Source: Candidatus Nomurabacteria bacterium (lineage in GTDB: Bacteria > Patescibacteriota > Minisyncoccia > Phycocordibacterales > UBA918). From it: DNA of 64,000 bases. The stretch covers positions 458,852 to 522,851 of the forward strand of contig JACKGH010000001.1 in NCBI GenBank assembly GCA_020632075.1. The letters run 5' to 3'. Every line of letters starts with the position of its first letter. Within the stretch, counting starts at the first letter, position 1. Positions 27,241 through 55,925 of this stretch are shown here, piece by piece. The translations under genes were made by a program, and so were the position numbers. The notes under the pieces were generated by a model, which saw nothing but the letters and a program-made list of their open reading frames with translations, was not told where the DNA came from and did not search any database.

Positions 27241-28296
27241 CTACCCTCTCTGTGACCGCAATTGCTCTAAAGCCAATGTCCAAGCTTCACCCTCTACAAG
27301 ATACTTTGCTGAAACAGCGCCATAGCCAGATAAATAATCTCCTGCATCAGACGCTCTAGCGAAATCAATGATCGCTGGCACAAGATCGCGACCGCGCGGG
27401 ATCTGATCAGCCGGAACTTGTTTAAAGTAGTATTTTACGGCCTCAGCCAACCTCCCTGCTCCAGCATGATGAGAATCAGCTGCTAATCGAGGCAATATTT
27501 CGTCCTGCAACGTCTGTTCTTCAACCCCATGCTGACGCAGCAAGTCCATTGTTCCCTGGGACTCAAGATGACTAATAAGCTGATCGTATTTTTCTTCTAG
27601 ATGCAACGCTGCTACCCTGATCTGTTCTGCAGGATCTTGATACTTTTTTGGATCACTGCCGTATGATTCCAGTAGCTTCTCGGATACCTGCAGTAAGCCA
27701 GCATACTCACCATTACGACGTGATGGATCAAACCGAGACTCTTTGGCACACATACCGATTAATAGCTCACGAAGCTTCGCCTGTGCCCGCGGCGGGATCC
27801 CTTCTTGCGTCTCTTCATTCCATGCAAAGGTCACCTTATCTCTTAGATAATCAATAAGCGGCACGCCATCAATCTCTAGCTCAGTCGCATTTCGGAGCGT
27901 CTGCTCGACATCAACCGGAGACAGCTTCTCCACTCCCTCAAGCACTTTCTGCTCCAACACACCAGCAACCGACCCGCCATCAACTTCAGCCCAGTTGGCG
28001 TAGCGTTCAGAATCAAAACCACTATCTGCAGCATAGGTCTCTGTCGTATTATGCTGTGCATCTAGCACCAACGGTTCGGCGTCGGGTGCCTGCCCAGAAT
28101 CCTTCACCGGAGTAAATGTCAAACCTGCTACCAACGCCAAAACTTTACGCAGATCACGCTTTTGCTCTGGCGTGTGAGCACCAAACTCCTCTACTGGATC
28201 TATTTCATCATCAACAAACTCATATCCATCAGTCAAACTATAACTTCCATCACTATACTTTTCTGGAGGGTTTAAACTCGGGCGTATTTTTTCCAT
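27241..28296 (-). CDS. hypothetical protein with lytic-transglycosylase (SLT)-like motif
   Basis: 351-aa ORF; GMCAKESRFDPSRRNGEYAGLLQVS resembles the SLT catalytic ES...GLMQ motif; no obvious signal peptide. Confidence 0.5.
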   Translation of the reverse strand: MEKIRPSLNPPEKYSDGSYSLTDGYEFVDDEIDPVEEFGAHTPEQKRDLRKVLALVAGLTFTPVKDSGQAPDAEPLVLDAQHNTTETYAADSGFDSERYANWAEVDGGSVAGVLEQKVLEGVEKLSPVDVEQTLRNATELEIDGVPLIDYLRDKVTFAWNEETQEGIPPRAQAKLRELLIGMCAKESRFDPSRRNGEYAGLLQVSEKLLESYGSDPKKYQDPAEQIRVAALHLEEKYDQLISHLESQGTMDLLRQHGVEEQTLQDEILPRLAADSHHAGAGRLAEAVKYYFKQVPADQIPRGRDLVPAIIDFARASDAGDYLSGYGAVSAKYLVEGEAWTLALEQLRSQRG

Positions 28297-28310
28297 GTAT
28301 TGATGATAAC

Positions 28311-28338
28311 AAAAAAAGCGGAGAGTAACTCCGCTTTT
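28311..28338 (-). terminator. intrinsic terminator ~250 nt downstream of smc
   Basis: gcggag-agtaa-ctccgc with A7 upstream (T7 on the minus strand). Confidence 0.7.
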
Positions 28339-28590
28339 CGACAGGTGGTCATAATCCAGCCCAGGGCTCGTGATGTGGCCTTACTCGCGCTTTGATCGTA
28401 AGCAGCAACAATGACATTCTGTGATACGTTTTGTACCACCATTTTTGTTGCAGCAAGCGCTGCGCACGATACCCGCGCTTACCTGTCGACAAAGTGTCTC
28501 TGTTTGTTTCATTCATGTACATGTCCTCCGTCAGGTCCGATGGCTGTAACGACTGGGAGAAACAAAAGGTTACATGCACTGCGAGCTCGT

Positions 28591-30831
28591 TTACTTTGCC
28601 ACAGCAGCCGCTTCATCAAACTTCACTGAGAGTACTTTCGAGACACCGTCGGCACCCATGGTAATACCATAGAGAATACCAGCACGACTCATAGTCTCTC
28701 GATTATGTGTGATAAGCACGAGCTGCGACTTCTTTGCAAGGGCCTCGATCATGTCTCCGTATCGGCGACTATTAGCCTCATCAAGCGCTGCGTCGGTCTC
28801 GTCGAGAATAATGAACGGTGGTGGATTGACCTGACTCATTGCAAAGATAAGTGCGATGGAAGTAAGCGCTCGCTCACCGCCTGAAAGCATCTCAAGACCC
28901 TTGACCCGTTTGTTTGGTAGCGAGACATGCAACTCGACTCCGTCCTCGATCTGTGAATCTTCCTCGCCCTCTTCTTCATCACCACGCTTTTTGAGCTCAA
29001 CCCGCTTAAGACTAGCCGCTCCACCACCAAACATAAGGGTGAAAAATGTATGAAATTCTTTCGTGATCTTCTCTAGACCAATGGTAAATTGCTCTTGTAG
29101 CTTCCCTTGCATATCGACGATCAGCTCTTTGAGATTCTGTACCGACTCTTCCAAGTCTGAGAGCTCACGAGCCAAAAATTCATCACGTTCTTTGACAGTG
29201 TTGTATTCCTTAAGCAGGTCCTCGGTTGCACCAACACCAAGCTCCTCAAGTCGGATCTTGAGCTTTTCAAGATCGTGCTGTCGCTTGCGCTGCACACCAC
29301 GATCTTCACTGATGATCATTTGTTCAGTAAGAGTAGAACCAGATTCATTGATGATCTCTTGCTGGTAGTAGTCTGAGGCACCACGACCAAGGAGCGTGAC
29401 CGCTTCTTGTAGTTGTACTTTAAAATCTGCGCGGTCACGCTCCAATACTGCCAACTCCCGATCGATCGCCGCCAATTTCCCTTCACTGTCTCGCTGCTCA
29501 TTCATGAGTTCAAACATCTCTCGTTCTGCTTCGCGATTCTTTTCCGTATCGGCTAGCTGTGCTGACTGCAATCCCTTCAGCTTCGTTGCCGCCTCTTCTT
29601 CAACACCAACCGCTTTGGCAACCATCTTCTCTGCAGCGTGCAACATCTTTGAGAGCGCTTCCAGTTCTTCTTGATCAGCCGCACTTGTGTCGATCACCTC
29701 ACCTTGTTCAGTCTTTAGAAAACCGCGCAACTTCTCTAACAAGTCTTTTAGAGCGCGCTTTACTTCCTTTACATCATCTACATCGAGCGCCTTTTCAGCG
29801 TGCTTCTCGAGCGATTCAACCAACTCTTCAAGCTGAGCTCGTGAGACGACAGTACTCACCGCTGTTTTCTTAGGTGGCGTTGTTAGGCGACGCTCAATGA
29901 ATGAGACCTGCCCTTCAAGCTTGCTGTATTCTCGTTCAGCCTCCTGACGAGCTTGTGCAGCCTTGCGCAACTCCGCCTCAGCTTCAGTTAACTCAGCTGG
30001 TACTTCTGCGGTTTCGGTTTTAGCCAAGAGTGCTTTTACCTCCACCAACTTTTCCTTCACTTCTTCCAGCTGTTTAGCTGGATTCGATCGTTCTTTGGTA
30101 AGGCGATCAAAGTGATGTGCGACATACACATCTTCGCGTTTCAGGTACTCAGCATACTTCGTTCGCAGCTCTTTTTGCACCTCAAGCGAACGTTCAGCTT
30201 TTTCTACCTGCTTCTTTAAATATTTTAAATGTGGCGCAGCCTCACGACGGAGGGACTCAACCTGCGCGATGTTTTCATGGGTCTTTTCTAGTTTGCGCTC
30301 AGTTTCTTGTTTTTTGAGTTGGTACACCTTGAGACCAAGGGCATCTTCGATCATTTCACGACGCTCTTTCGGACCAGCAGCAAGCACTCGATCAGCTTCC
30401 CCCTGGGAAATGATGTGATGTCCGGTCGAACCTATATTCGCGCCAGCTAAAAGCTCATGGATATCTTTGAGTCGAACCGAAGAGTCGTTGAGCTTGTATT
30501 CGTTTTGACCATCACGATGGACGATACGCTCGATTTTGACTTCGTCAAAATCGAGCGCAAGCGACCGACTCTTATTATCGAACACTACCTGCACACTCGC
30601 TCGATTACCACGCGAGACCTTCTCTGAACCACCCCAGATGAGGTCCTCACCACGCTTGCCACGCATTGACTTCACCGACTGCTCTCCGAGTACAAAACGA
30701 AACGACTCAGCAGTATTACTTTTCCCTGAACCGTTCGGACCAACGATCGCGGTGATCGGCGCAGAAAATTCGAGCTCGCTTTTTTTAGCGAATGACTTGA
30801 AGCCATTGATGGTGAGCTCTTTCAAATACAT
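28591..30831 (-). CDS. smc: SMC-family chromosome-partition ATPase, unusually short (746 aa, no evident hinge domain)
   Basis: N-terminal Walker A IVGPNGSGKSN with the canonical SMC N-terminus; C-terminal signature LSGGERALTSIALIFAM and Walker B FIILDETDAALD; central region is coiled-coil-like, with no globular Gly-rich hinge. Confidence 0.8.
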   Translation of the reverse strand: MYLKELTINGFKSFAKKSELEFSAPITAIVGPNGSGKSNTAESFRFVLGEQSVKSMRGKRGEDLIWGGSEKVSRGNRASVQVVFDNKSRSLALDFDEVKIERIVHRDGQNEYKLNDSSVRLKDIHELLAGANIGSTGHHIISQGEADRVLAAGPKERREMIEDALGLKVYQLKKQETERKLEKTHENIAQVESLRREAAPHLKYLKKQVEKAERSLEVQKELRTKYAEYLKREDVYVAHHFDRLTKERSNPAKQLEEVKEKLVEVKALLAKTETAEVPAELTEAEAELRKAAQARQEAEREYSKLEGQVSFIERRLTTPPKKTAVSTVVSRAQLEELVESLEKHAEKALDVDDVKEVKRALKDLLEKLRGFLKTEQGEVIDTSAADQEELEALSKMLHAAEKMVAKAVGVEEEAATKLKGLQSAQLADTEKNREAEREMFELMNEQRDSEGKLAAIDRELAVLERDRADFKVQLQEAVTLLGRGASDYYQQEIINESGSTLTEQMIISEDRGVQRKRQHDLEKLKIRLEELGVGATEDLLKEYNTVKERDEFLARELSDLEESVQNLKELIVDMQGKLQEQFTIGLEKITKEFHTFFTLMFGGGAASLKRVELKKRGDEEEGEEDSQIEDGVELHVSLPNKRVKGLEMLSGGERALTSIALIFAMSQVNPPPFIILDETDAALDEANSRRYGDMIEALAKKSQLVLITHNRETMSRAGILYGITMGADGVSKVLSVKFDEAAAVAK

Positions 30832-30833
30832 AG

Positions 30834-31430
30834 CTATTCACACTGGCCACCAGCGCTATAAACTGCTACGGTTTCATAGAAATCTGTTGAAGCCTTATAT
30901 GCAGCGTCATGAGTATTACCATCACACTCACCACAGCTCGTCGGACAACGAGCAAACGTGTCGTCAGGCTGAATCCCATCTGCAGCAGTATCAAATCCTC
31001 CTAGACAATTTTCAGCCGTTAGCTTAAACCAGTTTTGACTAGCTGATCCAACATTGTATATGTACGTACACGCTGAGTTTGCTGAGTCGTCAGGACTCGG
31101 AAGACTTGAAATGAAATCGGGGATCAGATCATCAACGAATGGATTGATGGCACAATGCCCAGCTCCTCCGGTATCAGAGTCTGCTGTTGAGGTTGCTGCG
31201 GCGGTTGTTCCGCAGGCAGGAATATCTGGATAATGTCCATGTTGTGCTCGATACAATTCAATTGCTAACTGCAACTCTTTTAACTCCGAAAACACCTCTT
31301 TGTTACGTGCTTCAGTACGAGCATGTCCAAAATTGGCGTACAAGATAGCGGACAAGATACTGATGATCGCCACTACGACCATGATCTCAACTAAGGTGAA
31401 ACCTTTTCGTGCAAGATAGCTTTTTTTCAT
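30834..31430 (-). CDS. type IV pilin / pseudopilin (prepilin-type N-terminal methylation domain)
   Basis: 198-aa ORF; KGFTLVEIMVVVAIISIL class III signal; C-terminal Cys residues. Confidence 0.8.
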   Translation of the reverse strand: MKKSYLARKGFTLVEIMVVVAIISILSAILYANFGHARTEARNKEVFSELKELQLAIELYRAQHGHYPDIPACGTTAAATSTADSDTGGAGHCAINPFVDDLIPDFISSLPSPDDSANSACTYIYNVGSASQNWFKLTAENCLGGFDTAADGIQPDDTFARCPTSCGECDGNTHDAAYKASTDFYETVAVYSAGGQCE

Positions 31431-31479
31431 AGAATCATTATAACGTAGCCCTTCTAGAGTCTAGGCTACTTACTACCAC

Positions 31480-32157
31480 TTACGGCATTCGGCAGATCAC
31501 CTTTTCGAGCTCTTCTTCGTAGCGAACTGCATTCAATGGCCTAGGCTCATCAGGATAACCACCCCACAACCCGTATGAGTACCGAAACTCACTGTCAGTA
31601 TTATCGCATTTGATAACGCCCAGTCCACCAAATGGTGACACTGCGTTACAAACAGCATCAGGATTGTTATCACTCACATCACAGCTCATGAATGGATGAG
31701 GATCAGGGTAAAAAGCATTCGGTTTTTGGATACCTGGCGGCGTAAGTTCTGCTGTACGAGCAGCCATGATCTTGTACGCCGAGCGAGCTGCGTTAGTCAC
31801 GTAGATGTAGCCAGAATTATTCCCATTACGCTTCGGGTCGGTCGGCAATGCGCGAATGTACTCAGGAGCCAAGCCAACGATATACTGACCATCATCTGCA
31901 CTTGGACAATCATATATCGTGCCGATCTCACCAGACCACACCAGCGCTCCGTTGCAGCCTGGAGGGTACATTCCTTTATCTAGTTTGTACTGCTCGATCG
32001 CACTCTGCAGCGCTCTAAGATCAGCCTGTCGCTGCGCATTTCGAGACTGAACTGAGGCGTCATTGAAGTTGTAATACAACAGACTAGAAAGAATTGTGAT
32101 AACAGCCACCACAACAAGCATCTCTGGAAGAGTAAAACCTAGTGAAGAGCGATTCAT
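31480..32157 (-). CDS. type IV pilin / pseudopilin
   Basis: 225-aa ORF; GFTLPEMLVVVAVITIL prepilin motif; C-terminal Cys residues. Confidence 0.8.
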   Translation of the reverse strand: MNRSSLGFTLPEMLVVVAVITILSSLLYYNFNDASVQSRNAQRQADLRALQSAIEQYKLDKGMYPPGCNGALVWSGEIGTIYDCPSADDGQYIVGLAPEYIRALPTDPKRNGNNSGYIYVTNAARSAYKIMAARTAELTPPGIQKPNAFYPDPHPFMSCDVSDNNPDAVCNAVSPFGGLGVIKCDNTDSEFRYSYGLWGGYPDEPRPLNAVRYEEELEKVICRMP

Positions 32158-32187
32158 GCTACTAGTGTAGCATGTAGAAATAATCTG

Positions 32188-32904
32188 CTACTCAGTTTGC
32201 CAACCTTTTGCTTCGATTGCTTTCTCTGCTGCTTGTTGCTCAGCTTCTTGTTTTGAGCGTCCTTTGCCTTCAGCTACCTTCTCCTTACGCAAAAAGACTC
32301 CAACCGTAAACACCCGGTCATGATCTGGGCCTTCCTGACTAACTGTCTCGTAGGTTGGGGTCACCGAAACATGCTCCTGAGCCATCTCTTGGAAGCGGCT
32401 CTTAGCATCTTGCCACAGGCGCTTACGGACGATCTCATCAGTCTTCCCAAAGAGGCGATCAGCAATAAAGTTTTTCGCCGCATCGTAGCCCCTATCCATG
32501 TAAATAGCACCGATGCAGGCTTCAAACGCGTTGGCGAGAATGTACTGGCGGGCGCGTCCGACGTCTTTCGCCTCGCCCTTACTCATCAGCAAATAGTCGT
32601 TTACACCGAGCTGCTCGGACGCGCCCGCCAGTGAAACTGTATTCACCAAAGCTGCCCGCACTGCAGTAAGTTCTCCTTCAGGCTTCTCTGGATATTTATG
32701 AAAGAGGTAATCAGTCACCACGAGCTCCAACACCGCATCACCCAAAAACTCTAGACGTTCATTGTGGTCCCAGGTCGCGTCGCGGTGTTCATTCAAGTAT
32801 GAACGATGTGTAATAGCTGATAACAGTATCTGAATATCAGCAAAAGTAACTCCGAGCAGCTCTTGCAGCTTCTCTAAGTCGGTATCAAGTTTTGTAACTT
32901 CCAT
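32188..32904 (-). CDS. rnc: ribonuclease III
   Basis: 238-aa ORF; RNase III signature ERLEFLGDAVLELVV; C-terminal dsRBD. Confidence 0.92.
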   Translation of the reverse strand: MEVTKLDTDLEKLQELLGVTFADIQILLSAITHRSYLNEHRDATWDHNERLEFLGDAVLELVVTDYLFHKYPEKPEGELTAVRAALVNTVSLAGASEQLGVNDYLLMSKGEAKDVGRARQYILANAFEACIGAIYMDRGYDAAKNFIADRLFGKTDEIVRKRLWQDAKSRFQEMAQEHVSVTPTYETVSQEGPDHDRVFTVGVFLRKEKVAEGKGRSKQEAEQQAAEKAIEAKGWQTE

Positions 32905-33011: not shown

Positions 33012-33914
33012 CTATTTTGAGCCCCTGCCAACCAAAACCGTAACTGCCTTGGTAACGATCGGAAGAATGTCTTCGTAGAAGTTGAGCTCGAGAATATCAG
33101 CTACTTTGAACCATTTTGCGTCGTCAAGACCGCCCTTCTTGAGCAGTTCAATATCCTGATATGGTGCATTAGCTAGAAAGTAGTGTACCTGCTTGCGCAC
33201 TTTGCCTTTTTCTGGCTGTGAAGCGACGTATTCATTATTGCCAAGCTCTTGCTCAAGCGTGATTGGAAGACCAACTTCTTCAAGGAGTGCGCGAGTTGCC
33301 CCCTCCTCGACCGTTTCTTCTTCCTTCACCTTACTCTTAGACAAAGTCCAGTGACCAAAGATATCGTGTACAAGCGCAAGGTACAGCTGCCCTTCGTGTT
33401 CTGCGTAGACTACCGCACCAGAAAGACGCTCAATTGGCATTTGATCAAACGGCACATCTTTCTTGCGACGCTTACTCACCTCATCCTTTCCAGGTTCACC
33501 GATCTCCTTGTAGACCGCACCGAGTACACCGTTTACAAACCGACTACTATTATCGCCACCAAACTGCTTGGCGAGTTCGATCGCTTCGTTGATCGCCACC
33601 TTTGCTGGCACTTCTGCTCGATCAGCAAAAAGCAGCTCGTACAGCCCGAGTCGGAGAATATTTCGATCAACTGGAGAGATGCGGTCGATCGGCCAGTCTG
33701 GTGCAGCCTTTTCGATCACGAGGTCGAGCTCCGGCTGCTTCGCCATAACGCCGTCGAGTAGTTTTTCCATAAATGGCATATCGGTCTTGTTGGGCGCGAA
33801 TTCTGCGACGTTTCGCTCCAAGACTTCATGAACTGCTTTTTTCTCAAGCGCATTTAAATCCCACTCAAAGAGTGACTGAAGAACAATGCTGCGTGATAAA
33901 TGTCGATTTGCCAT
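33012..33914 (-). CDS. nusB: transcription antitermination factor NusB fused to a C-terminal Nudix-like domain
   Basis: 300-aa ORF; N-terminal ~140 aa NusB-like (RSIVLQSLFEWDL, ILRLGLYELLF); C-terminal ~150 aa has a Nudix-fold pattern GHWTLSKSKVKEEETVEEGATRALLEEVGL with a degenerate Nudix box. Confidence 0.8.
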   Translation of the reverse strand: MANRHLSRSIVLQSLFEWDLNALEKKAVHEVLERNVAEFAPNKTDMPFMEKLLDGVMAKQPELDLVIEKAAPDWPIDRISPVDRNILRLGLYELLFADRAEVPAKVAINEAIELAKQFGGDNSSRFVNGVLGAVYKEIGEPGKDEVSKRRKKDVPFDQMPIERLSGAVVYAEHEGQLYLALVHDIFGHWTLSKSKVKEEETVEEGATRALLEEVGLPITLEQELGNNEYVASQPEKGKVRKQVHYFLANAPYQDIELLKKGGLDDAKWFKVADILELNFYEDILPIVTKAVTVLVGRGSK

Positions 33915-35410: not shown

Positions 35411-35773
35411 ATGAACTGTACTCAAATACTGTTTACATTGTTCATCAGCTTGTTTACTTGGTCTGTCAGTTACGCTGAAGAATCGAGGACCCCGGAGAAG
35501 ATGATCGAATCATCCCACGTATGCCCGCTCCAAGATTACAGGAATGTAAAGTTTGATTGGAAGATCATACACAAGGATGGAGACCAGAAGACCTCGGTTT
35601 TCCGGCAATTCCTTACTGGGAAAAGTTATCCTCCACAGGTCACTATAGAGTGGACTTCGACCACGCCGGTTGAGATTGAGTGCCAAAATGAACACATCGC
35701 CATCACCGTGAGAGACACAGCACTAATTAAGATCTTCCTACCGATGAAGTCAGGTCCCATTGGTACCATCTAA
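35411..35773 (+). CDS. hypothetical secreted protein
   Basis: 120-aa ORF; GAGGAA RBS; N-terminal signal-like segment. Confidence 0.5.
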   Translation: MNCTQILFTLFISLFTWSVSYAEESRTPEKMIESSHVCPLQDYRNVKFDWKIIHKDGDQKTSVFRQFLTGKSYPPQVTIEWTSTTPVEIECQNEHIAITVRDTALIKIFLPMKSGPIGTI

Positions 35774-35940: not shown

Positions 35941-36471
35941 ATGTATACTGACGAAACGACCAACCTTCCCTCCTTCGAAACAGCCAAGCCCGACGACCTG
36001 GTGTATGAGCTGTTCCACCTGTTCGAAAGAAGCGGACGCTGGTTCGACAACGTCGCACAGCAATGTGAGCGACTACTATGGACCGAGGCTGACCGTGAAG
36101 CCTGGACTAAGGCACAACATGCTATGTCCGAGGAACAACGTGCAGCCGAACAAGCAGCCTATATGGCGACACTCGGCAGCTTCGCTTGGATCTCCGAGCT
36201 CGATGAGTTCGGACTGTGGATGCACACCACCCTTGAGTCAAGAGGTGTCACCATCCACGCATTCCGCCTCGGATACGGGGAACCTGGTCGATCAGACGAC
36301 CCAACGATGTACGTTCTACATCATCCTGACGACAAAGATGATTACACGAAGGTGTATGTCATTCGCCGAGACGTAGATCCAAACTCATCGCTCCGTCGAA
36401 CAATCTGGGTCAACGAACCGATTCAGAAAATGTACGAGTGGTATCTCCAAAGTGAGGATATGGACGTATAG
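35941..36471 (+). CDS. hypothetical protein
   Basis: 176-aa ORF followed by a strong terminator; no recognisable domain. Confidence 0.5.
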   Translation: MYTDETTNLPSFETAKPDDLVYELFHLFERSGRWFDNVAQQCERLLWTEADREAWTKAQHAMSEEQRAAEQAAYMATLGSFAWISELDEFGLWMHTTLESRGVTIHAFRLGYGEPGRSDDPTMYVLHHPDDKDDYTKVYVIRRDVDPNSSLRRTIWVNEPIQKMYEWYLQSEDMDV

Positions 36472-39997: not shown

Positions 39998-40404
39998 CAA
40001 ATGACAAACAATATGTATAGTATTTTAGTCCTAGGTCTTACTGGAGAACATCATGGAAGTTAATCCTGAAGAGTATCTCAATCGCGAATTCTTGTCTTTT
40101 GCAAAGAAATTTGGGTTTTCACCCTCGACATCTCAACCTCAACAGTTTAACGAACTTAGAACGACAGCCGTGGTGCACCTTCTCTATAGCATGGTTGACA
40201 CAAACCGTTTCGCCTCGCTTGACGAGACAAAACGACTACGGATTGGGGGATTGTCGCTGCAGCGTCGAAGAATGCCTGTCACAACAATAGTAACTACGAA
40301 CAAAATTTTAACTTGTCTCTATCGCTGGCAACCTGGATCAACACCTACCCGGCTGAGTAGAGAGGGATTCGTTGCACACCGCGTCCTCGGCCGCGGTTTT
40401 TTGT

Positions 40405-40430
40405 TTGACAATATTTTTTAGCGCTAGGAT
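40405..40430 (+). promoter_or_regulatory. promoter-like motif copy B (TTGACA-14-TAGGAT)
   Basis: tttgacaatattttttagcgctaggattgtagaaacagagattg is near-identical to copy A, including downstream ACAGAGATTG. Confidence 0.4.
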
Positions 40431-43206: not shown

Positions 43207-46200
43207 TTATGAAACAGCCTTCACTGCTTTCATGATAGCCATCTTCACGGCTTCTTGTTCAGAGGTGTATGTACCATCGAGTGCACTCGTAAGTGCAGAG
43301 ATCGCATTTTTGAGCTGCCCATCAGACAACCGAGTAGTTTCTCGCGTAAGCATGTCTGAAACCTTTTCAGAACCACCCTTACGATTGCGATAGACCGCAT
43401 CAAGGTCGGCAGAAGCGTCAGCTAGTGCAAACATTGGTCGCTTTCCGATCATCTCGTACGCAGCAACGATGTTGCCAGTCACGATCGCTTCAGCAAGTGA
43501 ACCGGTACCTTCAGGTACTGTCGCTGGAATGAACGGCTCCTGACTTGAAGACACTTGACCGACCTGACACACGTCACACAGATTACGCATGCGTGCTTCG
43601 TTGATAACGATCCAGCCGTCTTCAAGCGGGTACGTTTTCTTTGCTTCTGCGATCACTGTATCAAGCGCTTCGTTACGCTCAACTTCACCTGTGGTCGTGC
43701 CTACAAAGTGACGCACCGCATCACTTGAAAGTAATGCCTTTTGGGCGTGCGCACGGTTCTCAAGATCAGTTACTACTGCATCGTCCACCTGATGTGGATT
43801 TACCGCAGGAACTTCGACCTCGTTTTCTTTGTGGTTTTCATAACCGATCGCTGGCGTACCAGTTGGCAAATTACTCGGAGTTGCAAAGTCAGCTGGCGCT
43901 GGAGTAGTGGTCACCGACTTCACAAAGAGGTCAGGCTTCACTCCTTCCGCCTTCTGCATTGCCGCCACACCATCGAAAGATGGTGATGGTGTGGCCTTAG
44001 TAAAATTTACCGGCGAATCAGTTACGGTTCGCTTTCGGATCACCAAAAGGTAGGTAATGAAGAATGCCCATGCCACAAGCAATCCATAGAAGAGGAAAGT
44101 CATGATCGGACCAGCTTCAAAACCGGTGTATGGCACCTGTGAGAGTGAGATACCAGCAACGAGTGGCTGCTGATCGCGAGTCTGTAGCACAACTACATCA
44201 TCATCGATCGCAACAGCAACAGTACACTCATCTTCACGTGAACCTCGCTCAGCAAGCAATGTGAACTTCGTGTCACGAGTTGGACGCAAGGTAAGCTCAC
44301 CATCGTAGTAATCCTCCTTGTCACTTGCAAGGTAATCATCAGTCGTGAAGAGGATCTCACCACGATCGTCCTTGATCGTTACCTCAGTTGCGCGTGAAGT
44401 GTCCCACGTAAGAGTCACTTCATCGCCACGTGAGATACGAGTGTCTGAAATATCGAGTTCACAACGTGGTGATGAGCTTCCGCCACCGCCACCGCCGCTT
44501 GATACATCAATAGTAAGTGGACAGGTAATGGTCTTATCACCCTGCGTAGCAGTAAGAGTGTACGTAGTGTCATCAGATGGAGTTACTGACTGGCTTCCAG
44601 AAAGTGAAGTCGCATTGATGTTACTGATCGATACCGTATCAACGTTGGTTGTACTCCAGTTAAGTGTACTTTCGCTACCACGCGTGATCGAGTAGTCATC
44701 CGCAGTGAAGGTAACGTTATCAGCACACGTGAATACCGGCTCTGGATCTGCTACCGCAACTGGCGCCACACAACTCACCTGATCATTGTTCCCGTCGATC
44801 GCAGTGAGAGTGAACGTGGTTGATTCAGTTACGTTAAGTGACTGTGAACCAGTAAGTCCGACAGTTCCTATCGTTGGTGTGATCGATACTGTATTTGCGC
44901 CAGTTACTTCCCAGTTAAGTGATACTGGACCACCGCCATATGGAAGCTGGTTTGGTGTTGCAGTGAAGAATTCACATACTGGCACCGGATCTTCTGAGAC
45001 AGTTACTGGTGCCGTACAGTTCACAGTCTGATCGTTCTCACCTTTGACCGTGAGGATGTAGGTAGTGTTAGTTGTTGGAGAAACAGTATGTGTACCATCT
45101 ACAGCAACAATACCGATCCCATTATCAAGACTGACCTCAGTCGCGTTGGTGGTTTCCCAAGTCAAAGTTGTGCTGTCTCCAACGGTAATACCTGATGGAT
45201 TAGCCACGAACAGATCACAGCTTGGGAGCTTAGGCACTTCAACAGTTACCGGTACCTGACATTCTGTCACCTGGTCCTTCTGACCGATCACGGTCAGAGT
45301 GTATGTGATAGTAGCAAGCGGTGTCACGCTGATCGAACCATCTGCAGAAACTGCACCGATACCGTTGTTGATAAACACCTGATCAGCGTTTGAACTCTCC
45401 CACGTAAGGGTTGCGCTTTCACCTAGCAATATGGTGCTTGGAGTTGCAGTGAACAGATCACAGCTTGGCACTGGTACGATCGACACGTCAACCGGTACTG
45501 AACAAGTAACCGACTGACCAGTCGCTCCGTATACAGTAAGTGTGTACGTTGTATCTACTGTAGGCGATACAACGATCGAACCATCTGCAGAAACTGCACC
45601 GATACCGTTGTTCATAACAACATCAGTTGCGTTTGAAGTATTCCAGGTCAAGGTTGCGCTGTCGCCGACCATGATCGCAGTTGGATTAGCAGAGAAGTAA
45701 TCACAACTTGGAGCTGGTGGCTGTGTGACAGTCACCGGTACTGAACAAGTAACCGACTGACCAGCAAGACCTGCAACCGTCATGACGTAGGTCGTGTTGG
45801 TTGTTGGTGACACTGACACCGAACCGTCTGCAGCAACAACACCAACACCGTTGTTGATGGTTACTGATTCTGCGTTGGTTGTTTCCCATGTCAGAGTCAC
45901 TGTGCCACCGGTAGTGATCGTAGACGGAGTAGCAGTGAACATATCACAGCTCGGTGCCGGGATAGTAGTTACGGTCACTGGCACAGAACAGGTCACTGTT
46001 TGTCCAGTGCCATATGCTGTGAGTACGTATGTAGTATTGACTGTCGGTGACACAACGCGCGTACCGTCTACAGACACTGCACCGATACCGTTGTTAATAC
46101 TTACTGCAGTTGCGTTGGTTGTTTCCCAACTCAAAAGTGTCGTCTCACCAACAGTGATCACTGCTGGTGTCGCGGTGAATGAATCGCAACGTGGGACTGG

Positions 46201-47174
46201 AGTATAACAGTCGGTATCAATGAGAGTTCGAACAGTTTGGCTGTACTCCCAGGTCTGGAAGTTATTGAGTTCCTTGGCTGATGCCTTAGCTTGGTTGGTC
46301 ACTTCAAAATCACCACACTGTGCAGGAGTCTTTACGGTACCTCCCCACGTGATAGTTCCTACTTCACCTGGTTCGAGTACGTGTCCATTAAAACGAAGAG
46401 TTCGGTCGCTGGCGGTGTAGACAGGACTAGTGCCGTATCCAGCACTGAGATTCGATGACACTTGATACCAAGCGTAGTTCAGATCAGTGTCGACCACATC
46501 GACGATCTTCACTCCTCCACCAGTACAGTCAGCATCACCAACGTTCTTCACGGTGATAGTGTAGATGAGCTCGTCACCAGGTAGACCGACGGTCTTATTG
46601 ACTGATTTCTGAACATCAAGCTCACAGTACTTTGGAGTTTCTGGGGGCAGACAGGTGACTTGTACTTGCTGCACACACGACGATCCGCCGTTTGACAAAG
46701 CTTGCAAGGTAAAGATGGTACTTTCCTGAAGGTTATTGATCACCATCGAGCCTGAATCCGCTGAGACAGTATTGCCGTTGATCGTAATGGTGTCGAAACC
46801 ACTCGTTGACCAATTGAGGGTAAAGCTCTCACCAGTAGTTACAAGTGTTTTGCTAGCATCAAGTACACACTCGATAAAATCACTACTGTAAGCACCACCT
46901 GAAGTGTCCGTCGTGTAATTGAGATCAAAATCTCCACCAAGGTCCAAATTCGAACCTAGATCGAGATTTGTATCAAGATTTAGACCTGAGTTCAGGTCGA
47001 GATTTGTATCTAAATTGGTCCCAGGGCTAAAATCGATCCCTGAGTCGAGCTGCGTGAGCGCGATCGCAGTACTTGCTGGAGGCAAGACCGTGGTCACCAC
47101 AAACGCAAAGACCACCATCACACTTGCGATGGTCTTGAATTTCTTGTTCATAACATTACGCTTAGTTTGATTCA
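43207..47174 (-). CDS. giant cell-surface protein: signal peptide, DUF11-like domain, ~8 tandem Ig-like repeats, VPYTG + TM + RKR, then a ~280-aa cytoplasmic domain
   Basis: Start MNQTKRNVMNKKFKTIASVMVVFAFVV has AGGAG upstream (the 6-frame ORF starts at 47211); ~95-aa repeats CDxFTATP...TLTWETTNA...NNGIG...VSPTxNTTYxLT...VTCxVPV; Gly6 linker; VPYTGFEAGPIMTFLFYGLLVAWAFFITYLLVIRKR. Confidence 0.85.
44180..46190 (-). repeat. coding tandem repeats (~285 bp, ~8 degenerate copies) for Ig-like domains of the giant surface protein
   Basis: Periodic ~95-aa protein repeats bounded by conserved Cys; visible as a recurring DNA pattern. Confidence 0.7.
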
Positions 47175-47331
47175 TAACATCTATACTCCTGTCTACACCT
47201 GTGCGACACAAGAGTAATGAAGGTTACGAAACAGCGCCTACAATAAGGCTATCTAAGAACGTTGAGCGACTAGCTCACGGAGAACAAATGATGGAAAATC
47301 ATAGTTCAAAAAGCACCTTTTGTCAAGGAAT

Positions 47332-48054
47332 CTAGAGTGCTTGTACGTCAACGAGCTTGGCCTCTACGATGTAGCGATCGTCAACACTTCCAAAGCTGTT
47401 ACAAGTGGCCAACGTCAGCGTTTTACTGGTGCCTGCAATTGGCACTGTCACATCCTGGGCTCGAGCTCGATACACTTTTTCAACTCGATACTCATACATA
47501 CCATCTTCAGAATAGAGCTTGATCTTATCGCCCCACTCTAGATTCTGAATACCATTGAAAGCCTGGAAGTTTTTATTGAAGACTTGCGGCAAATAACTCG
47601 AGTGACCCAAGATGAAGACGGTCCCTTCCTGCGCCAACGTTGCAGAATCAGGATGCCGAACGACACCCTCGAGCAAAGACGCGTCAAGATCAGCGATCGT
47701 ACGTGAGGTCGGATTAAGCACTGTCACGTCTTTCTCAAGACGATCGATCACCAATCGCATTGGCAACACACCTTCAACTGAGATTGACTCAGACGACACT
47801 GCTGGAGCCACTTCAGGCTCATCTATTTCTTCTACCACTTCCTCGACTTCTGCTTCTGCTGTTTCTTCAGCCTGCGCACGCGGCGTAACCGAAACCACCT
47901 CAGTAGCTTCTTCTGTTTCCATTGTGGTTTCGGCCGGCGGCTCAGGAATAAAGTCGACCGCCACCAACAAAATGTACGTGAGCGTGAACACCAAAAAGAA
48001 CGTGCCAAGAAACACGGACTTCTTTGCCCAGATTTGATCAAACAGTGCGTTCAT
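47332..48054 (-). CDS. sortase (class undetermined)
   Basis: 240-aa ORF; N-terminal TM anchor; FILGHSS (His) and TLTLATC (TLxTC catalytic Cys) motifs; immediately upstream of the giant surface protein on the same strand. Confidence 0.8.
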   Translation of the reverse strand: MNALFDQIWAKKSVFLGTFFLVFTLTYILLVAVDFIPEPPAETTMETEEATEVVSVTPRAQAEETAEAEVEEVVEEIDEPEVAPAVSSESISVEGVLPMRLVIDRLEKDVTVLNPTSRTIADLDASLLEGVVRHPDSATLAQEGTVFILGHSSYLPQVFNKNFQAFNGIQNLEWGDKIKLYSEDGMYEYRVEKVYRARAQDVTVPIAGTSKTLTLATCNSFGSVDDRYIVEAKLVDVQAL

Positions 48055-53844: not shown

Positions 53845-54564
53845 TTAGAATTGATTAACGAACCGAAGGTCTCCCGTATAAAAATCACGAACGTCCTCGA
53901 CTCCATACTTCATCACGCCGAGTCGATCGATACCCATACCAAACGCAAAACCTGAGTAGACGTCTGGATCAATCCCGCTGGCACGAAGCACATTCGGATG
54001 CACCATCCCTGCCCCCATCACTTCGATCCATTTGCCACAGAGCTTGCCTTCACCTTCGATCTTCATATCAACCTCAAAGCCTGGTTCCACAAACGGAAAG
54101 AAGCTCGGACGAAACCGCACTTCGGTCTTACCGCTAAAGAGCTTTGAGAAAAAATGTTCAAGCGTGCCTTTGAGATGTCCGAGATGCACACCCTTGTCGA
54201 CATAAAGTCCTTCCAGCTGATAAAACTGCGCTTCGTGCGTCGCGTCGGTGGTTTCGTTGCGGAATACCTTGCCCGGCACAATGATGCGGATCGGCGGCTC
54301 ATGACTTTCCATGTAGCGCGCCTGCACTGGACTGGTGTGGGTACGAAGCACCGTCGGTTCAGATACGTCCTTAGCCTTAAACCAAAACGTATCCTGCATA
54401 TCGCGTGACGGGTGGTCCTTCGGGACATTGAGCTGGTCAAAGTTGTAGTGCTCGGTCTCAGCCTCCGGACCTTCCGCAAACACAAACCCGATCTCCGCAA
54501 AGATCGCATTGATCTCTGTGATCATTTGAGTAATCGGGTGTTGGTGTCCGGGTTTTGGTTTCAT
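53845..54564 (-). CDS. pheS: phenylalanyl-tRNA synthetase alpha subunit (short form)
   Basis: 239-aa ORF; class II aaRS motifs (FRNETTDATHEAQFYQLEG, GAGMVHPNVL); ends ...FVNQF. Confidence 0.92.
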   Translation of the reverse strand: MKPKPGHQHPITQMITEINAIFAEIGFVFAEGPEAETEHYNFDQLNVPKDHPSRDMQDTFWFKAKDVSEPTVLRTHTSPVQARYMESHEPPIRIIVPGKVFRNETTDATHEAQFYQLEGLYVDKGVHLGHLKGTLEHFFSKLFSGKTEVRFRPSFFPFVEPGFEVDMKIEGEGKLCGKWIEVMGAGMVHPNVLRASGIDPDVYSGFAFGMGIDRLGVMKYGVEDVRDFYTGDLRFVNQF

Positions 54565-54770: not shown

Positions 54771-55925
54771 TTAAATTGGTTCAATTTCAGTGACAACGGC
54801 AAAATACTGATCATTATCACGAATGTAGATCTCGTCGTTTTCTACCACCACCTGGAAGTCGGTTCCTGGGTAAAGCAACTGCGAGTTTTGCCAAGCGCGA
54901 TCATCGATCTCGGTTACATAGAGACCGTCCTCAAGTTGCAGCAAGACCAGATCTGAACGACGAGGGAAGAAATCATAAAAGTACACATCCTGTCGCTGGC
55001 GATCAAGTTTGATCTCCGGTCGACAGAGTCGATTAGCATCTAGCACAAGCGGTGTGGTTGTCGACTCTGACAGCAGCTCAATCTGATCTGCCACGTGTTC
55101 TCCATACCGCACAGCAATTGAAGTCGTCGATGAGTCGCTTACACAAAAGTACGGTGGAATCGTGCCACCTGACTGCTGCCAGACCGCATAAAGCTCTTCG
55201 TCTCGTTCAACCAATCGGATGTTGCCGCGTTCGATCGGCAATTCTGGGGTAGTCGTCGCGTCGCCCAAAAGAGGCGCAGTGGTCGTCGCAAACCGGAAAC
55301 GTTCTACGCCATCAAGCAATCGCGCAAACACCGATTGTGAAGAGGTCGAGGTGGTACTGAACAAGCTTTCAACATAGATAAACTCTTCATTCAGATCATA
55401 CTGTGACTTAAATGTCGTCGTTGCCACAAGCACCGGCACCGTCGAACTTGCTCGTTCAAAAATAGATTCTGTCGACCGTGTACCGAAATACACCGGCACT
55501 CCACCACCAGCAACATACTCAGTGATCGGCCGCAGCTGTGGCCGAACCGGCATGTTGAACGCAGCGGCCTCGATTACAATATGCGCGTCTACCGGCAACA
55601 CCTTCACCCACGTCTGCAAATCTGGCCGCTGCACCACCACTCGATGATTGCCCGCTTCAATATTCTGAATGTAGTACGCCGACCGGAAAAAGCGTGGCTG
55701 CTCAACCAATTCTTCATCAAGATACACATCGACATCAAGCACGTCGGTGGTGACATACATACCACCAACCGTTACGATTGTTGTTTCTTCATTATCAAAA
55801 CTGAGACGATATCCAGTAGTGTAGAAAATAAGCACCGGCAGCGTAAACAAGAACACCAAAACCAACACAAAGAATAATCCTTGTCGACGTTTATATGAAA
55901 GTTCTCCGATCTGTGGCTCTTGCAT
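54771..55925 (-). CDS. hypothetical membrane-anchored protein, partner of the GT2 synthase
   Basis: 384-aa ORF; N-terminal TM (LFFVLVLVFLFTLPVLIFY) then a large Thr-rich extracytoplasmic domain; its start abuts the stop of the upstream GT2 gene. Confidence 0.5.
   Translation of the reverse strand: MQEPQIGELSYKRRQGLFFVLVLVFLFTLPVLIFYTTGYRLSFDNEETTIVTVGGMYVTTDVLDVDVYLDEELVEQPRFFRSAYYIQNIEAGNHRVVVQRPDLQTWVKVLPVDAHIVIEAAAFNMPVRPQLRPITEYVAGGGVPVYFGTRSTESIFERASSTVPVLVATTTFKSQYDLNEEFIYVESLFSTTSTSSQSVFARLLDGVERFRFATTTAPLLGDATTTPELPIERGNIRLVERDEELYAVWQQSGGTIPPYFCVSDSSTTSIAVRYGEHVADQIELLSESTTTPLVLDANRLCRPEIKLDRQRQDVYFYDFFPRRSDLVLLQLEDGLYVTEIDDRAWQNSQLLYPGTDFQVVVENDEIYIRDNDQYFAVVTEIEPI

What the first reader, a model, noticed from the sequence alone, without database searches (positions are those of the whole stretch)
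28591..32904. rnc-smc cluster interrupted by two type IV pilin genes, and an SMC of only 746 aa with no recognisable hinge
rnc followed by smc is a widely conserved arrangement. Here two prepilin-type genes (GFTLxEM N-termini) are inserted between them, all co-oriented with 3-50 nt gaps. The SMC has intact head motifs (Walker A, signature LSGGE, Walker B) but only ~450 aa between them and no Gly-rich globular hinge. This suggests a drastically shortened coiled coil, closer to a RecN/MukB-like design than to canonical 1150-1200-aa SMC.
Basis: partly seen in the sequence, partly recalled or inferred. Interest (0 to 1): 0.5.

Follow-up and report, generated by a model that had tools for sequence, protein, structure and literature searches.

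The report
Hinge-less half-length Smc behind inserted pilins
In this ultra-small (Parcubacteria/CPR) bacterium the chromosome-organising protein Smc has lost its hinge domain and about half of each arm, a form conserved across at least 80 related species, and pilin genes were inserted stepwise between rnc and smc.

Summary
On the minus strand lie rnc (32188-32904), two paralogous prepilin genes (31480-32157, 30834-31430) and a 746-aa SMC (28591-30831), with gaps of 30, 49 and 2 nt.

The 746-aa protein is the Smc orthologue, not RecN or SbcC. Its head halves are 41% and 38% identical to B. subtilis Smc, all ATPase motifs are intact, and it sits in the conserved rnc-smc slot.

It has no hinge. 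Pfam, PDB profile and HHalign searches are all negative, while a canonical hinge used as a control finds hinges from bacteria to humans.

AlphaFold gives arms of about 140-150 aa. Canonical arms are 344 aa. The arms end in a roughly 65-aa two-helix tip.

The short form is a large family in Paceibacteria. All 150 best 50%-identity clusters are short, as are all 80 species genomes I checked. Arm length is nearly invariant, whereas the tip varies.

In a sister lineage (Vogelbacteria and relatives) the tip is replaced by a conserved CxxCGQ motif that looks like a Rad50 zinc hook.

Pilin number between rnc and smc rises from 0 to 1 to 2-5 with relatedness to this genome.

I could not test whether ScpAB is present, nor how the protein dimerises. 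The closest precedent is a 2025 report of hinge-less SMC in marine Actinobacteria.

The parts
33012..33914 (-). nusB-Nudix fusion gene, the upstream neighbour in the conserved block rnhB-rpmF-nusB-rnc-(pilins)-smc
   Evidence: Pfam NusB plus NUDIX. Found at 57-93% identity in the same position in nearly all 80 related loci.
32188..32904 (-). rnc (RNase III), 238 aa
   Evidence: TIGR02191 scores 251 bits against a cutoff of 166. Pfam Ribonucleas_3_3 plus dsrm.
31480..32157 (-). Prepilin-type gene A, 225 aa. It lies next to rnc and is probably the later of the two copies.
   Evidence: N_methyl PF07963 and TIGR02532 pass; there is a GspG-like N-terminal helix. The processing motif G|FTLPE is visible in the sequence. 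It is 34% identical to pilin B, E=5e-23.
30834..31430 (-). Prepilin-type gene B, 198 aa, ending 2 nt before the smc start codon. It probably corresponds to the single pilin in the 54-60% identity relatives.
   Evidence: N_methyl and TIGR02532 pass. Loci with a single pilin mostly match this copy.
30337..30831 (-). smc N-terminal head half (residues 1-165), with Walker A at 31-39 and Q-loop Q143
   Evidence: 41% identical to B. subtilis Smc residues 1-217. The motif residues are invariant in A1.
29881..30336 (-). smc N-terminal arm helix (residues 166-317). It includes the neck and the conserved E306-G307 'GRxEG' motif that marks the end of the arm.
   Evidence: AF2 helices 168-273 and 279-317, with pLDDT up to 97. 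The G166-to-G307 distance is 141-143 aa (IQR) across 148 cluster representatives.
29686..29880 (-). Tip module that stands where the hinge would be (residues 318-382): loop, 19-aa helix, turn at 350-353, 22-aa helix, loop
   Evidence: AF2 gives pLDDT 82-85 for the two helices. The tip has no hinge homology. Its length varies from 35 to 99 aa in the family. The turn lies at the sequence midpoint between the head-proximal anchors.
29077..29685 (-). smc C-terminal arm helix, joint loop and neck (residues 383-585)
   Evidence: AF2 helices 383-481, 511-531 and 536-601. The 386-to-476 distance is 90 aa (IQR 90-90). The best structural match is the Smc head plus joint, 5xei.
28591..29076 (-). smc C-terminal head half (residues 586-746 plus the stop codon), with signature LSGGE 649-653, Walker B 673-680, D-loop and H709
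   Evidence: 38% identical to the B. subtilis Smc C-terminal head. The motif residues are invariant in A1.
28313..28339 (-). Intrinsic-terminator-like hairpin (11-bp stem followed by a T run), about 250 nt after the smc stop codon. It is the likely end of the transcription unit.
   Evidence: sequence. No comparable site lies between rnc and smc.

Best explanation
**What it is.** This is the orthologous smc gene of a Paceibacteria (Parcubacteria, CPR) genome, in a derived architecture.
- It keeps a complete Smc ATPase head, neck and joint.
- About 185 aa of each arm and the whole hinge domain are gone.
- In their place is a roughly 65-aa two-helix tip at the end of a roughly 140-150-aa antiparallel coiled coil. 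That arm is about 21-25 nm long, against about 49 nm in canonical Smc.

**How it probably works (inferred, not shown).**
- It still acts as a chromosome-organising ATPase.
- Two protomers are probably joined at the tip module, which takes over the dimerisation role of the hinge.
- The heads engage through ATP.
- The strongly conserved neck probably still binds a kleisin.
- The result would be a half-size Smc rod or ring on a roughly 1-Mb chromosome.

**The pilins.** They are a lineage-specific insertion into the ancient rnc-smc pair. The insert then expanded by tandem duplication and is probably co-transcribed with its neighbours. Nothing suggests a functional link to Smc.
For: **Shown: it is an Smc orthologue.**
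- TIGR02168 is the top family hit at 532 bits. The next unrelated families score 56 bits or less.
- The head halves are 41% and 38% identical to B. subtilis Smc.
- Foldseek's best match is the Smc head plus joint, 5xei.
- The block rnhB-rpmF-nusB-rnc-smc is syntenic in about 75 of the related loci. In the more distant ones rnc abuts smc directly.

**Shown: there is no hinge**, with a positive control.

**Shown: the gene is under selection and is not decaying.**
- All 150 best clusters at 50% identity are 643-782 aa.
- All 80 checked species genomes carry the short form, out of about 550 candidate species genomes.
- ATPase motifs are invariant.
- Arm segment lengths are almost fixed, at 141-143 aa and 90 aa.

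**Topology.** Two AF2 runs agree. Arm pLDDT reaches 97 and the tip helices score 82-85.

**Support for the tip as the dimerisation site.**
- In the Vogelbacteria-type orthologues, which share the synteny, 41 of the 120 nearest relatives of P0182 carry a conserved C-x-x-C-[GA]-Q motif exactly at the hairpin tip.
- One CxxC per chain can complete a zinc site only with a second chain. This rests on established knowledge of Rad50 hooks.
- In B. subtilis the hinge can be replaced by a Rad50 zinc hook with near-normal function (PMC5344682).

**Neck conservation.** The neck scores 0.6-0.74 against 0.23-0.30 in the mid-arm, which suggests a retained partner.

**Pilins.**
- The number between rnc and smc is 0 (23 of 24 loci) at under 54% Smc identity to the window. 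It is 1 (23 of 25 loci) at 54-60% identity, and 2-5 (24 of 25 loci) at 61% or more.
- The two window copies are paralogues.
- No terminator-like site lies between rnc and smc; one follows smc.
Against: - Dimerisation through the helical tip is not demonstrated. No multimer prediction was possible.
- Outside the close clade the tip is poorly conserved in sequence and varies from 35 to 99 aa.
- The tip has no recognisable structural relative.
- No ScpA or ScpB gene was found in the 64-kb window or in 1.36 Mb of smc-flanking DNA from 80 relatives. The rest of the genome could not be searched, so a kleisin partner is assumed.
- I could not exclude a second, canonical Smc elsewhere in these genomes.
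- The head is poorly modelled in the full-length AF2 run, with pLDDT below 50.
- The CxxC motif has no sequence-level match to Rad50 hooks.
- CxxC variants are not monophyletic in a crude NJ tree.
Confidence: 0.7

Rival explanations
1. The short Smc does not dimerise at its tip. It would work as a head-only ATP-dependent dimer or DNA clamp, like RecF or an ABC ATPase. The short arm and tip would then serve as a spacer or a protein-interaction stalk, with or without a kleisin, and there would be no ring or loop-extrusion function.
For: - The tip is variable in sequence and length in the wider family.
- The tip has no known dimerisation fold.
- No ScpAB gene is linked to smc.
Against: - Arm length is held almost constant over deep divergence. 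That is the behaviour of mechanically functional Smc arms (PMC5344682).
- Sister orthologues have a conserved single CxxC at the tip, which makes sense only as an intermolecular zinc site.
- The neck is strongly conserved.
Confidence: 0.2
2. It is not the condensin Smc. It would be a paralogous SMC-like repair ATPase of RecN, SbcC or Rad50 type that happens to sit next to rnc.
For: - The architecture resembles RecN or Rad50: short arms and no globular hinge.
- It falls just below the TIGR02168 trusted cutoff, at 532 bits against 567.
- NCBI names it 'AAA family ATPase'.
Against: - RecN scores 43 bits against a cutoff of 408, and Rad50 models score 56 bits or less against cutoffs of 700-1000.
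- It is 41-48% identical to the B. subtilis Smc head.
- All the best PDB matches are Smc, cohesin or condensin.
- It occupies the conserved rnc-smc position.
- No Mre11/SbcD-like neighbour appears in the loci inspected.
Confidence: 0.06
3. The short gene is an artefact, from mis-assembly, internal deletion or gene-calling error, or it is a decaying remnant.
For: None beyond the unusual length.
Against: - The ORF is uninterrupted, with canonical N- and C-termini.
- The same architecture appears in 80 independent species genomes, including closed chromosomes, and in all 150 best 50%-identity clusters.
- The catalytic motifs are invariant.
Confidence: 0.01

Closest known systems
Bacterial Smc of Smc-ScpAB (B. 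subtilis type; TIGR02168, COG1196)
   Same: - ABC head with all motifs, at 41% and 38% identity for the two halves.
- Neck and joint; the best fold match is 5xei.
- An antiparallel intramolecular coiled coil.
- A position next to rnc. The rnc-smc pairing itself is established knowledge from B. subtilis.
   Different: - No hinge domain.
- Arms of about 140-150 aa instead of 344 aa.
- A roughly 65-aa helical tip in place of the hinge.
- A score below the equivalog cutoff.
- ScpAB partners not found nearby.
'Hinge-less SMC' clade from ocean metagenomes assigned to Actinomycetes (Sussfeld et al. 2025, PMC12153180)
   Same: An SMC by sequence and fold, with an ATPase head and coiled coil but no hinge and no CxxC. 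It is conserved as a clade and is not a Rad50 or SbcC protein.
   Different: - A different lineage. That clade branches near the base of Actinobacteria, and its authors did not describe any CPR case.
- I could not compare sequences directly.
- Here the orthology is anchored by synteny, the arm length is measured, and a tip module with a zinc-hook alternative is identified.
Engineered B. subtilis Mini-Smc and Smc(Zh) (Burmann et al. 2017, PMC5344682)
   Same: - The hinge can be replaced by an unrelated dimerisation element.
- Arms function only at discrete lengths, spaced about 91-99 aa apart. A minor natural mode lies at 163 aa.
- The arms here are roughly two such periods shorter than the 344 aa of B. 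subtilis Smc. This is my estimate.
- The Vogelbacteria-type relatives look like natural Smc(Zh) proteins.
   Different: - Those were laboratory constructs.
- Arms of about 160 aa were not reported as functional in B. subtilis.
- The natural sequences in that survey were identified through their hinge.
RecN and Rad50/SbcC
   Same: A short or hinge-less coiled-coil ATPase design. The apex serves as the dimerisation site, through coiled-coil contacts in RecN and a CxxC zinc hook in Rad50/SbcC.
   Different: - Sequence scores are far below the family cutoffs.
- The window protein contains no cysteine at all.
- No nuclease partner lies nearby.

Membership tests
Bacterial Smc (TIGR02168 / COG1196) | ABC-type head with Walker A, Q-loop, signature LSGGE, Walker B, D-loop and H-loop | tested here: met
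   All motifs are present and invariant in 61 homologues. SMC_N E=1.8e-64. 41% and 38% identity to the B. subtilis head halves.
Bacterial Smc (TIGR02168 / COG1196) | Long intramolecular antiparallel coiled-coil arm, about 340 aa per strand | tested here: not met
   A coiled-coil hairpin is present but only about 140-150 aa per strand. The best, non-significant fold matches are Smc arm fragments.
Bacterial Smc (TIGR02168 / COG1196) | Central globular hinge dimerisation domain (PF06470) with Gly-rich motifs | tested here: not met
   No PF06470 hit at E<=10 in 11 family members. A profile against the PDB finds no hinge. HHalign gives 0.2%. The positive control works.
Bacterial Smc (TIGR02168 / COG1196) | Score above the curated equivalog cutoff | tested here: not met
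   532.4 bits against a cutoff of 567.35. It is still by far the best family hit.
Bacterial Smc (TIGR02168 / COG1196) | Orthologous genomic position next to rnc | tested here: met
   rnc-smc are adjacent, with gaps of 12-120 bp, in the more distant relatives. The same block with inserted pilins occurs in the closer ones.
Bacterial Smc (TIGR02168 / COG1196) | ScpA (kleisin) and ScpB (kite) partners encoded in the genome | not testable with these tools
   Absent from the window and from 1.36 Mb of flanks in 80 relatives.
RecN (TIGR00634) | Sequence membership above the cutoff | tested here: not met
   42.6 bits against a cutoff of 407.85.
Rad50/SbcC | CxxC zinc hook at the coiled-coil apex, and sequence membership | tested here: not met
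   The window protein has no cysteine. Rad50 models score 56 bits or less against cutoffs of 700-1000. A CxxCGQ apex does occur in orthologues of a sister lineage.
MukB / MksB | MukB-type N-terminal domain and a long arm with an elbow | tested here: not met
   PF04310 does not hit the window protein. In relatives it reaches only E=0.4-0.5.
Type IV pilin / T2SS pseudopilin superfamily | Class III signal peptide: short basic leader, G|F-T-L-x-E, then a hydrophobic helix | tested here: met
   PF07963 scores 34.9 and 25.8 bits against a cutoff of 21.2. TIGR02532 scores 36 and 28 bits against a cutoff of 16.3. The motifs are visible. No specific pilin equivalog cutoff is reached.
RNase III (TIGR02191) | RNase III catalytic domain plus dsRBD, scoring above the cutoff | tested here: met
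   251 bits against a cutoff of 166.25. Pfam domains.

The most novel reading that the evidence does not exclude
A whole class of bacteria (Paceibacteria) organises its chromosome with a natural hinge-less, half-length Smc. The apex of this Smc is an exchangeable dimerisation cassette: a helical cap in most lineages and a Rad50-like zinc hook in others. If so, nature has already run the 'hinge replacement' and 'arm resizing' experiments. The hinge would then be dispensable for the core Smc mechanism, while arm length stays quantised.
Probability: 0.45. Interest if true: 0.75.

Novelty: new variant of a known kind. Interest (0 to 1): 0.6.

Why it matters
**Why the hinge matters.** The hinge is treated as a defining and functionally important part of SMC proteins. 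It is credited with dimerisation and DNA binding, and is a proposed DNA gate.

**What this family offers.** It is a deeply conserved natural Smc orthologue that has lost the hinge but keeps a rigidly fixed, roughly half-length arm. Sister lineages carry a zinc-hook-like apex instead of the helical tip. Together these form a ready-made comparative system for asking which SMC features are truly required.

**Practical point.** Annotation pipelines label these proteins only as 'AAA family ATPase', so gene inventories of CPR genomes can score Smc as missing.

**The pilins.** The stepwise insertion of 0, then 1, then 2-5 pilin genes is a clean phylogenetic marker within Paceibacteria. Otherwise it is an ordinary genome rearrangement.

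Tried and rejected
- **Exact-sequence contig lookup for the window protein.** Not on record. I used relatives instead.
- **ScpA/ScpB search.** I built small HMMs from PDB-verified ScpA-N and ScpB sequences. I ran them over six-frame ORFs of the window plus 83 loci and found nothing at E<=0.1. Pfam scans of 46 window ORFs also found neither. This shows only that the genes are not linked to smc.
- **Finding where short and canonical Smc meet in the phylogeny.** Every search tool returns only the best 80-150 hits, and all of them are short forms. I therefore could not place the hinge loss within Patescibacteria.
- **AF2 with an alignment of locus translations (A2).** I rebuilt the alignment from substrings of database proteins (A3).
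- **Foldseek on the arm-plus-tip model.** No significant match for the tip.
- **Sequence search of the CxxC region against the PDB.** No Rad50 hit, only unrelated zinc-finger noise.
- **Neighbour-joining tree to test monophyly of the CxxC variants.** They are not monophyletic, but the tree is too crude to interpret.
- **Rfam scan of the window.** It found only one tRNA. Nothing matches the 250-nt stretch after smc.
- **Promoter scan.** At background level and uninformative.
- **Literature.** No paper in the library mentions SMC or ScpAB in Patescibacteria.

Full report
**1. The observation**

ORF listing confirms four co-oriented minus-strand genes at the stated coordinates:
- rnc, 32188-32904, 238 aa
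- a 225-aa gene, 31480-32157
- a 198-aa gene, 30834-31430
- a 746-aa gene, 28591-30831

The intergenic gaps are 30, 49 and 2 nt.

rnc passes the RNase III equivalog model, at 251 bits against a cutoff of 166. Both small proteins begin with a class III signal, G|FTLPEM and G|FTLVEI, and pass PF07963 and TIGR02532. They are paralogues of each other, 34% identical over about 190 aa, E=5e-23.

The 746-aa protein matches SMC_N end to end (residues 2-731, E=1.8e-64). It has no SMC_hinge hit.

**2. What the 746-aa protein is**

*Family assignment.* Its best NCBIfam match is bacterial Smc, TIGR02168, at 532 bits. That is just under the trusted cutoff of 567, which explains why NCBI names it 'AAA family ATPase'. 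RecN scores 43 bits and the Rad50 models 56 bits or less, far below their cutoffs.

*Head.* Against the PDB, residues 1-217 and 523-741 align to the B. subtilis Smc head (E=9.5e-88). BLAST gives 41% and 38% identity for the two halves, and up to 48% for other family members. The following motifs are present, and all are invariant in a 61-sequence alignment:
- Walker A (31-39)
- Q143
- LSGGE (649-653)
- Walker B (673-680)
- the D-loop
- H709

*Fold.* A Foldseek search with the full-length AlphaFold model finds the Pyrococcus Smc head-plus-joint structure 5xei first.

*Organism.* The exact sequence is on record from a 1,004,653-bp contig of 'Candidatus Nomurabacteria'.

**3. The hinge is really absent**

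- PF06470 does not appear even at E<=10 in the window protein or in 10 relatives down to 41% identity.
- A 42-sequence profile of residues 230-500 (alignment A2) searched against all PDB sequences at E<=10 returns only generic coiled coils such as GCN4, tropomyosin and designed helical bundles. It returns no SMC hinge.
- As a positive control, a canonical hinge sequence retrieves Geobacillus, Thermotoga and Pyrococcus hinges and the eukaryotic SMC1-4 hinges at 1e-68 to 1e-9. Hinge homology is therefore easy to detect when it exists.
- HHalign of A2 against the Geobacillus hinge gives 0.2% probability.
- The window protein has no cysteine, so it has no zinc hook either.

**4. Anatomy**

Two AlphaFold runs agree on the topology. 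One is full-length, with mean pLDDT 70; its arms are confident but its head is poor. The other covers residues 230-500 with a more diverse alignment, mean pLDDT 85.8. The elements are:

| Residues | Element |
|---|---|
| 168-273, 279-317 | N-terminal arm helices |
| 318-330 | loop |
| 331-349 | tip helix 1 |
| 350-353 | turn |
| 354-375 | tip helix 2 |
| 376-382 | loop |
| 383-481 | C-terminal arm helix |
| about 491-510 | joint loop |
| 511-531, 536-601 | neck helices |

The turn at 350-353 coincides with the sequence midpoint (346.5) between the head-proximal anchors G166 and R527. This is what a symmetric hairpin predicts.

In 148 cluster representatives at 41-60% identity, most of the length variation falls in two places:

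| Segment | Length |
|---|---|
| G166 to G307 | 141-143 aa (IQR) |
| 386 to 476 | 90 aa (IQR 90-90) |
| Tip | 35-99 aa, median 76 |
| Joint loop | variable |

A conserved GRxEG motif (E306-G307 here) marks the end of the N-terminal arm.

The neck is much better conserved than the mid-arm, at 0.6-0.74 against 0.23-0.30.

At about 0.15 nm per residue the arm is roughly 21-25 nm long. B. subtilis Smc has arms of about 49 nm and 344 aa (PMC5526789 abstract; PMC5344682).

By my estimate each arm is about 185 aa shorter than in B. subtilis. That is about two of the 91-99-aa periods that Burmann et al. found to govern permissible arm lengths, and it puts the arm near their minor natural mode at 163 aa. 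The comparison is approximate, because I set the B. subtilis domain boundaries from memory.

**5. It is a large, conserved family**

- The best 120 hits in the 90%-clustered database are all 689-774 aa, and none carries a hinge Pfam domain.
- In the exhaustive search of 50%-identity representatives, the best 150 clusters are all 585-782 aa; the shortest are fragments, and 148 lie between 690 and 790 aa. Most align 1:1 over the full length.
- A scan of GTDB species genomes found about 550 genomes encoding a relative. The best 80 are all full-length short forms at 48-76% identity. They are labelled Nomurabacteria, Kaiserbacteria, Adlerbacteria, Taylorbacteria, Parcubacteria, Paceibacteria/-ota and Minisyncoccia.

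I could not reach the point where short and canonical forms meet, because every tool lists only the best hits.

**6. Orthology by synteny, and the pilin insertion**

tblastn of the window's neighbouring genes against the 83 loci shows one conserved block: rnhB - rpmF (L32) - nusB::Nudix - rnc - [insert] - smc, with rnr on the opposite strand downstream.

Counting prepilin-motif ORFs between rnc and smc gives a clean gradient with Smc identity to the window:

| Smc identity to window | Loci | Pilin genes between rnc and smc |
|---|---|---|
| 61% or more | 25 | 2 (16 loci), 3 (5), 4 (1), 5 (2), 1 (1) |
| 54-60% | 25 | 1 (23 loci), 0 (2) |
| under 54% | 24 | 0 (23 loci); gap often only 12-120 bp |

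So rnc-smc adjacency is ancestral in this group, as it is in B. subtilis (established knowledge). One pilin gene was inserted in a subclade and was later duplicated in tandem.

The only strong terminator-like hairpin lies about 250 nt after smc, at 28339-28313. None lies between rnc and smc. This is consistent with co-transcription but does not prove it.

I see no evidence for a functional link between the pilins and Smc. No type IV pilus machinery genes turned up among the 46 window ORFs scanned.

**7. A zinc-hook-like tip in sister lineages**

While preparing alignments I noticed that six cluster representatives lack the helical tip. They are 49-53% identical to the window protein and 663-719 aa long. 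About 20-25 residues after GRLEG they carry C-x-x-C-[GAK]-Q, for example ...GKSCPVCGQLV....

- P0182 comes from 'Candidatus Vogelbacteria'. It lies in the same nusB::Nudix - rnc - ... - smc - rnr block, so it is an orthologue.
- A homologue search seeded with P0182 shows the motif, mostly CPYCGQ, in 41 of its 120 nearest relatives. These have a median length of 709 aa, against 745 aa for the 79 without the motif.
- The CxxC lies 158-173 aa after G166 and 138-152 aa before the R527 equivalent, which puts it at the hairpin tip.

A single CxxC at the apex of a coiled coil is the hallmark of the Rad50/SbcC zinc hook, in which two chains share one zinc ion (established knowledge). Burmann et al. 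showed that exactly this swap, Smc(Zh), supports growth in B. subtilis.

The resemblance rests on the motif and its position. Sequence search does not link the region to Rad50. A crude NJ tree does not make the variants monophyletic.

**8. Mechanism**

*Shown:*
- It is an intact Smc-type ATPase head with neck and joint.
- It has a fixed-length half-size arm and a non-hinge tip.
- It is under strong purifying selection.

*Inferred:*
- The protein still forms homodimers joined at the tip.
- The heads engage through ATP.
- The conserved neck binds a kleisin.
- The result is a small Smc rod or ring acting on a roughly 1-Mb chromosome.

*Not tested:*
- Whether ScpA and ScpB exist in this genome. 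They are absent from the window and from 1.36 Mb of flanks.
- Whether a second Smc exists in this genome.
- Whether the helical tip dimerises.

The main rival is that the tip is not a dimerisation site and the protein acts as a head-only clamp. I give this about 0.2. The paralogue reading (about 0.06) and the artefact reading (about 0.01) are poorly supported.

**9. Comparison with what is known, and novelty**

The closest family is bacterial Smc. It shares the head, neck and joint, the coiled-coil hairpin and the locus. It differs in having no hinge, half-length arms and a sub-threshold equivalog score.

The closest published precedent is the 'hinge-less SMC' clade that Sussfeld et al. (2025) found in ocean metagenomes and assigned to Actinomycetes. 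[quoted passage not shown] They did not describe any CPR case. I could not compare the sequences, though one member of the present family is in the Tara data (P0044).

Full-text searches found no paper that discusses SMC or ScpAB in Patescibacteria.

I therefore rate this a new variant of a known kind. Hinge loss in SMC has been reported once elsewhere. I found no earlier description of the following:
- its conservation across Paceibacteria
- the fixed arm length
- the distinct tip module
- the natural CxxC-hook alternative
- the stepwise pilin insertion

**10. Verdict**

The 'RecN/MukB-like' comparison holds only as an architectural analogy.

Interest is 0.6. An SMC specialist would find a naturally hinge-less, half-length orthologous Smc with an exchangeable apex surprising and experimentally useful. 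Against that, hinge-less SMCs already have one published precedent, and the dimerisation mechanism and partner proteins remain inferred.

Noticed in passing
Relatives only: P0161, P0182, P0203, P0212, P0214, P0217, P0271-P0305 and others; L084 987-3095 and L085 6001-8109: Orthologous short Smc proteins of a sister lineage ('Candidatus Vogelbacteria' and relatives) carry a conserved C-x-x-C-[GA]-Q motif, mostly CPYCGQ, at the coiled-coil tip in place of the helical cap. It looks like a natural Rad50-type zinc hook on an Smc. 41 of the 120 nearest relatives of P0182 have it.
   Followed up: partly
window 33012-33914 (-): NusB is fused to a C-terminal Nudix hydrolase domain in one 300-aa protein. 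The fusion is conserved at 57-93% identity in nearly all 80 related loci, immediately upstream of rnc.
   Followed up: no
window 28297-28590 (-): About 250 nt after the smc stop codon contain no convincing ORF and no Rfam match. The stretch ends in a strong terminator-like hairpin at 28339-28313. Relatives have small or medium unannotated ORFs of 58-209 aa at this position.
   Followed up: partly
window 27241-28296 (-): A 351-aa protein downstream of smc has a weak lytic-transglycosylase (SLT) domain in its C-terminal half. It is weakly conserved, at 24-28% identity, in the same position in several relatives. A second SLT_2-like protein lies at 62000-63361.
   Followed up: no
L001/L004 (CP060229.1), locus coordinates 4765-7991 in L001: In this closed Nomurabacteria genome, five prepilin-type genes lie in tandem between rnc and smc: one of 230 aa without a precomputed Pfam hit but with the prepilin motif, plus four N_methyl genes. 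This is the largest expansion seen.
   Followed up: partly
window 43207-47211 (-) and 47332-48054 (-): A 1,334-aa protein with DUF11 and Ig-like repeats lies next to a sortase gene. It is probably a sortase-anchored surface adhesin.
   Followed up: no
window 53845-54564 (-): The PheS-like protein is only 239 aa and consists of the catalytic core alone (tRNA-synt_2d positions 12-246). It appears to lack the usual N-terminal extension.
   Followed up: no
L084 3167-3835: A Y1 (IS200-type) transposase gene sits immediately downstream of the hook-type smc in a Vogelbacteria contig.
   Followed up: no
window 54771-55925 (-), 35411-35773 (+), 35941-36471 (+), 40053-40421 (+): Four ORFs of 120-384 aa have no Pfam match at E<=0.01.
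   Followed up: no
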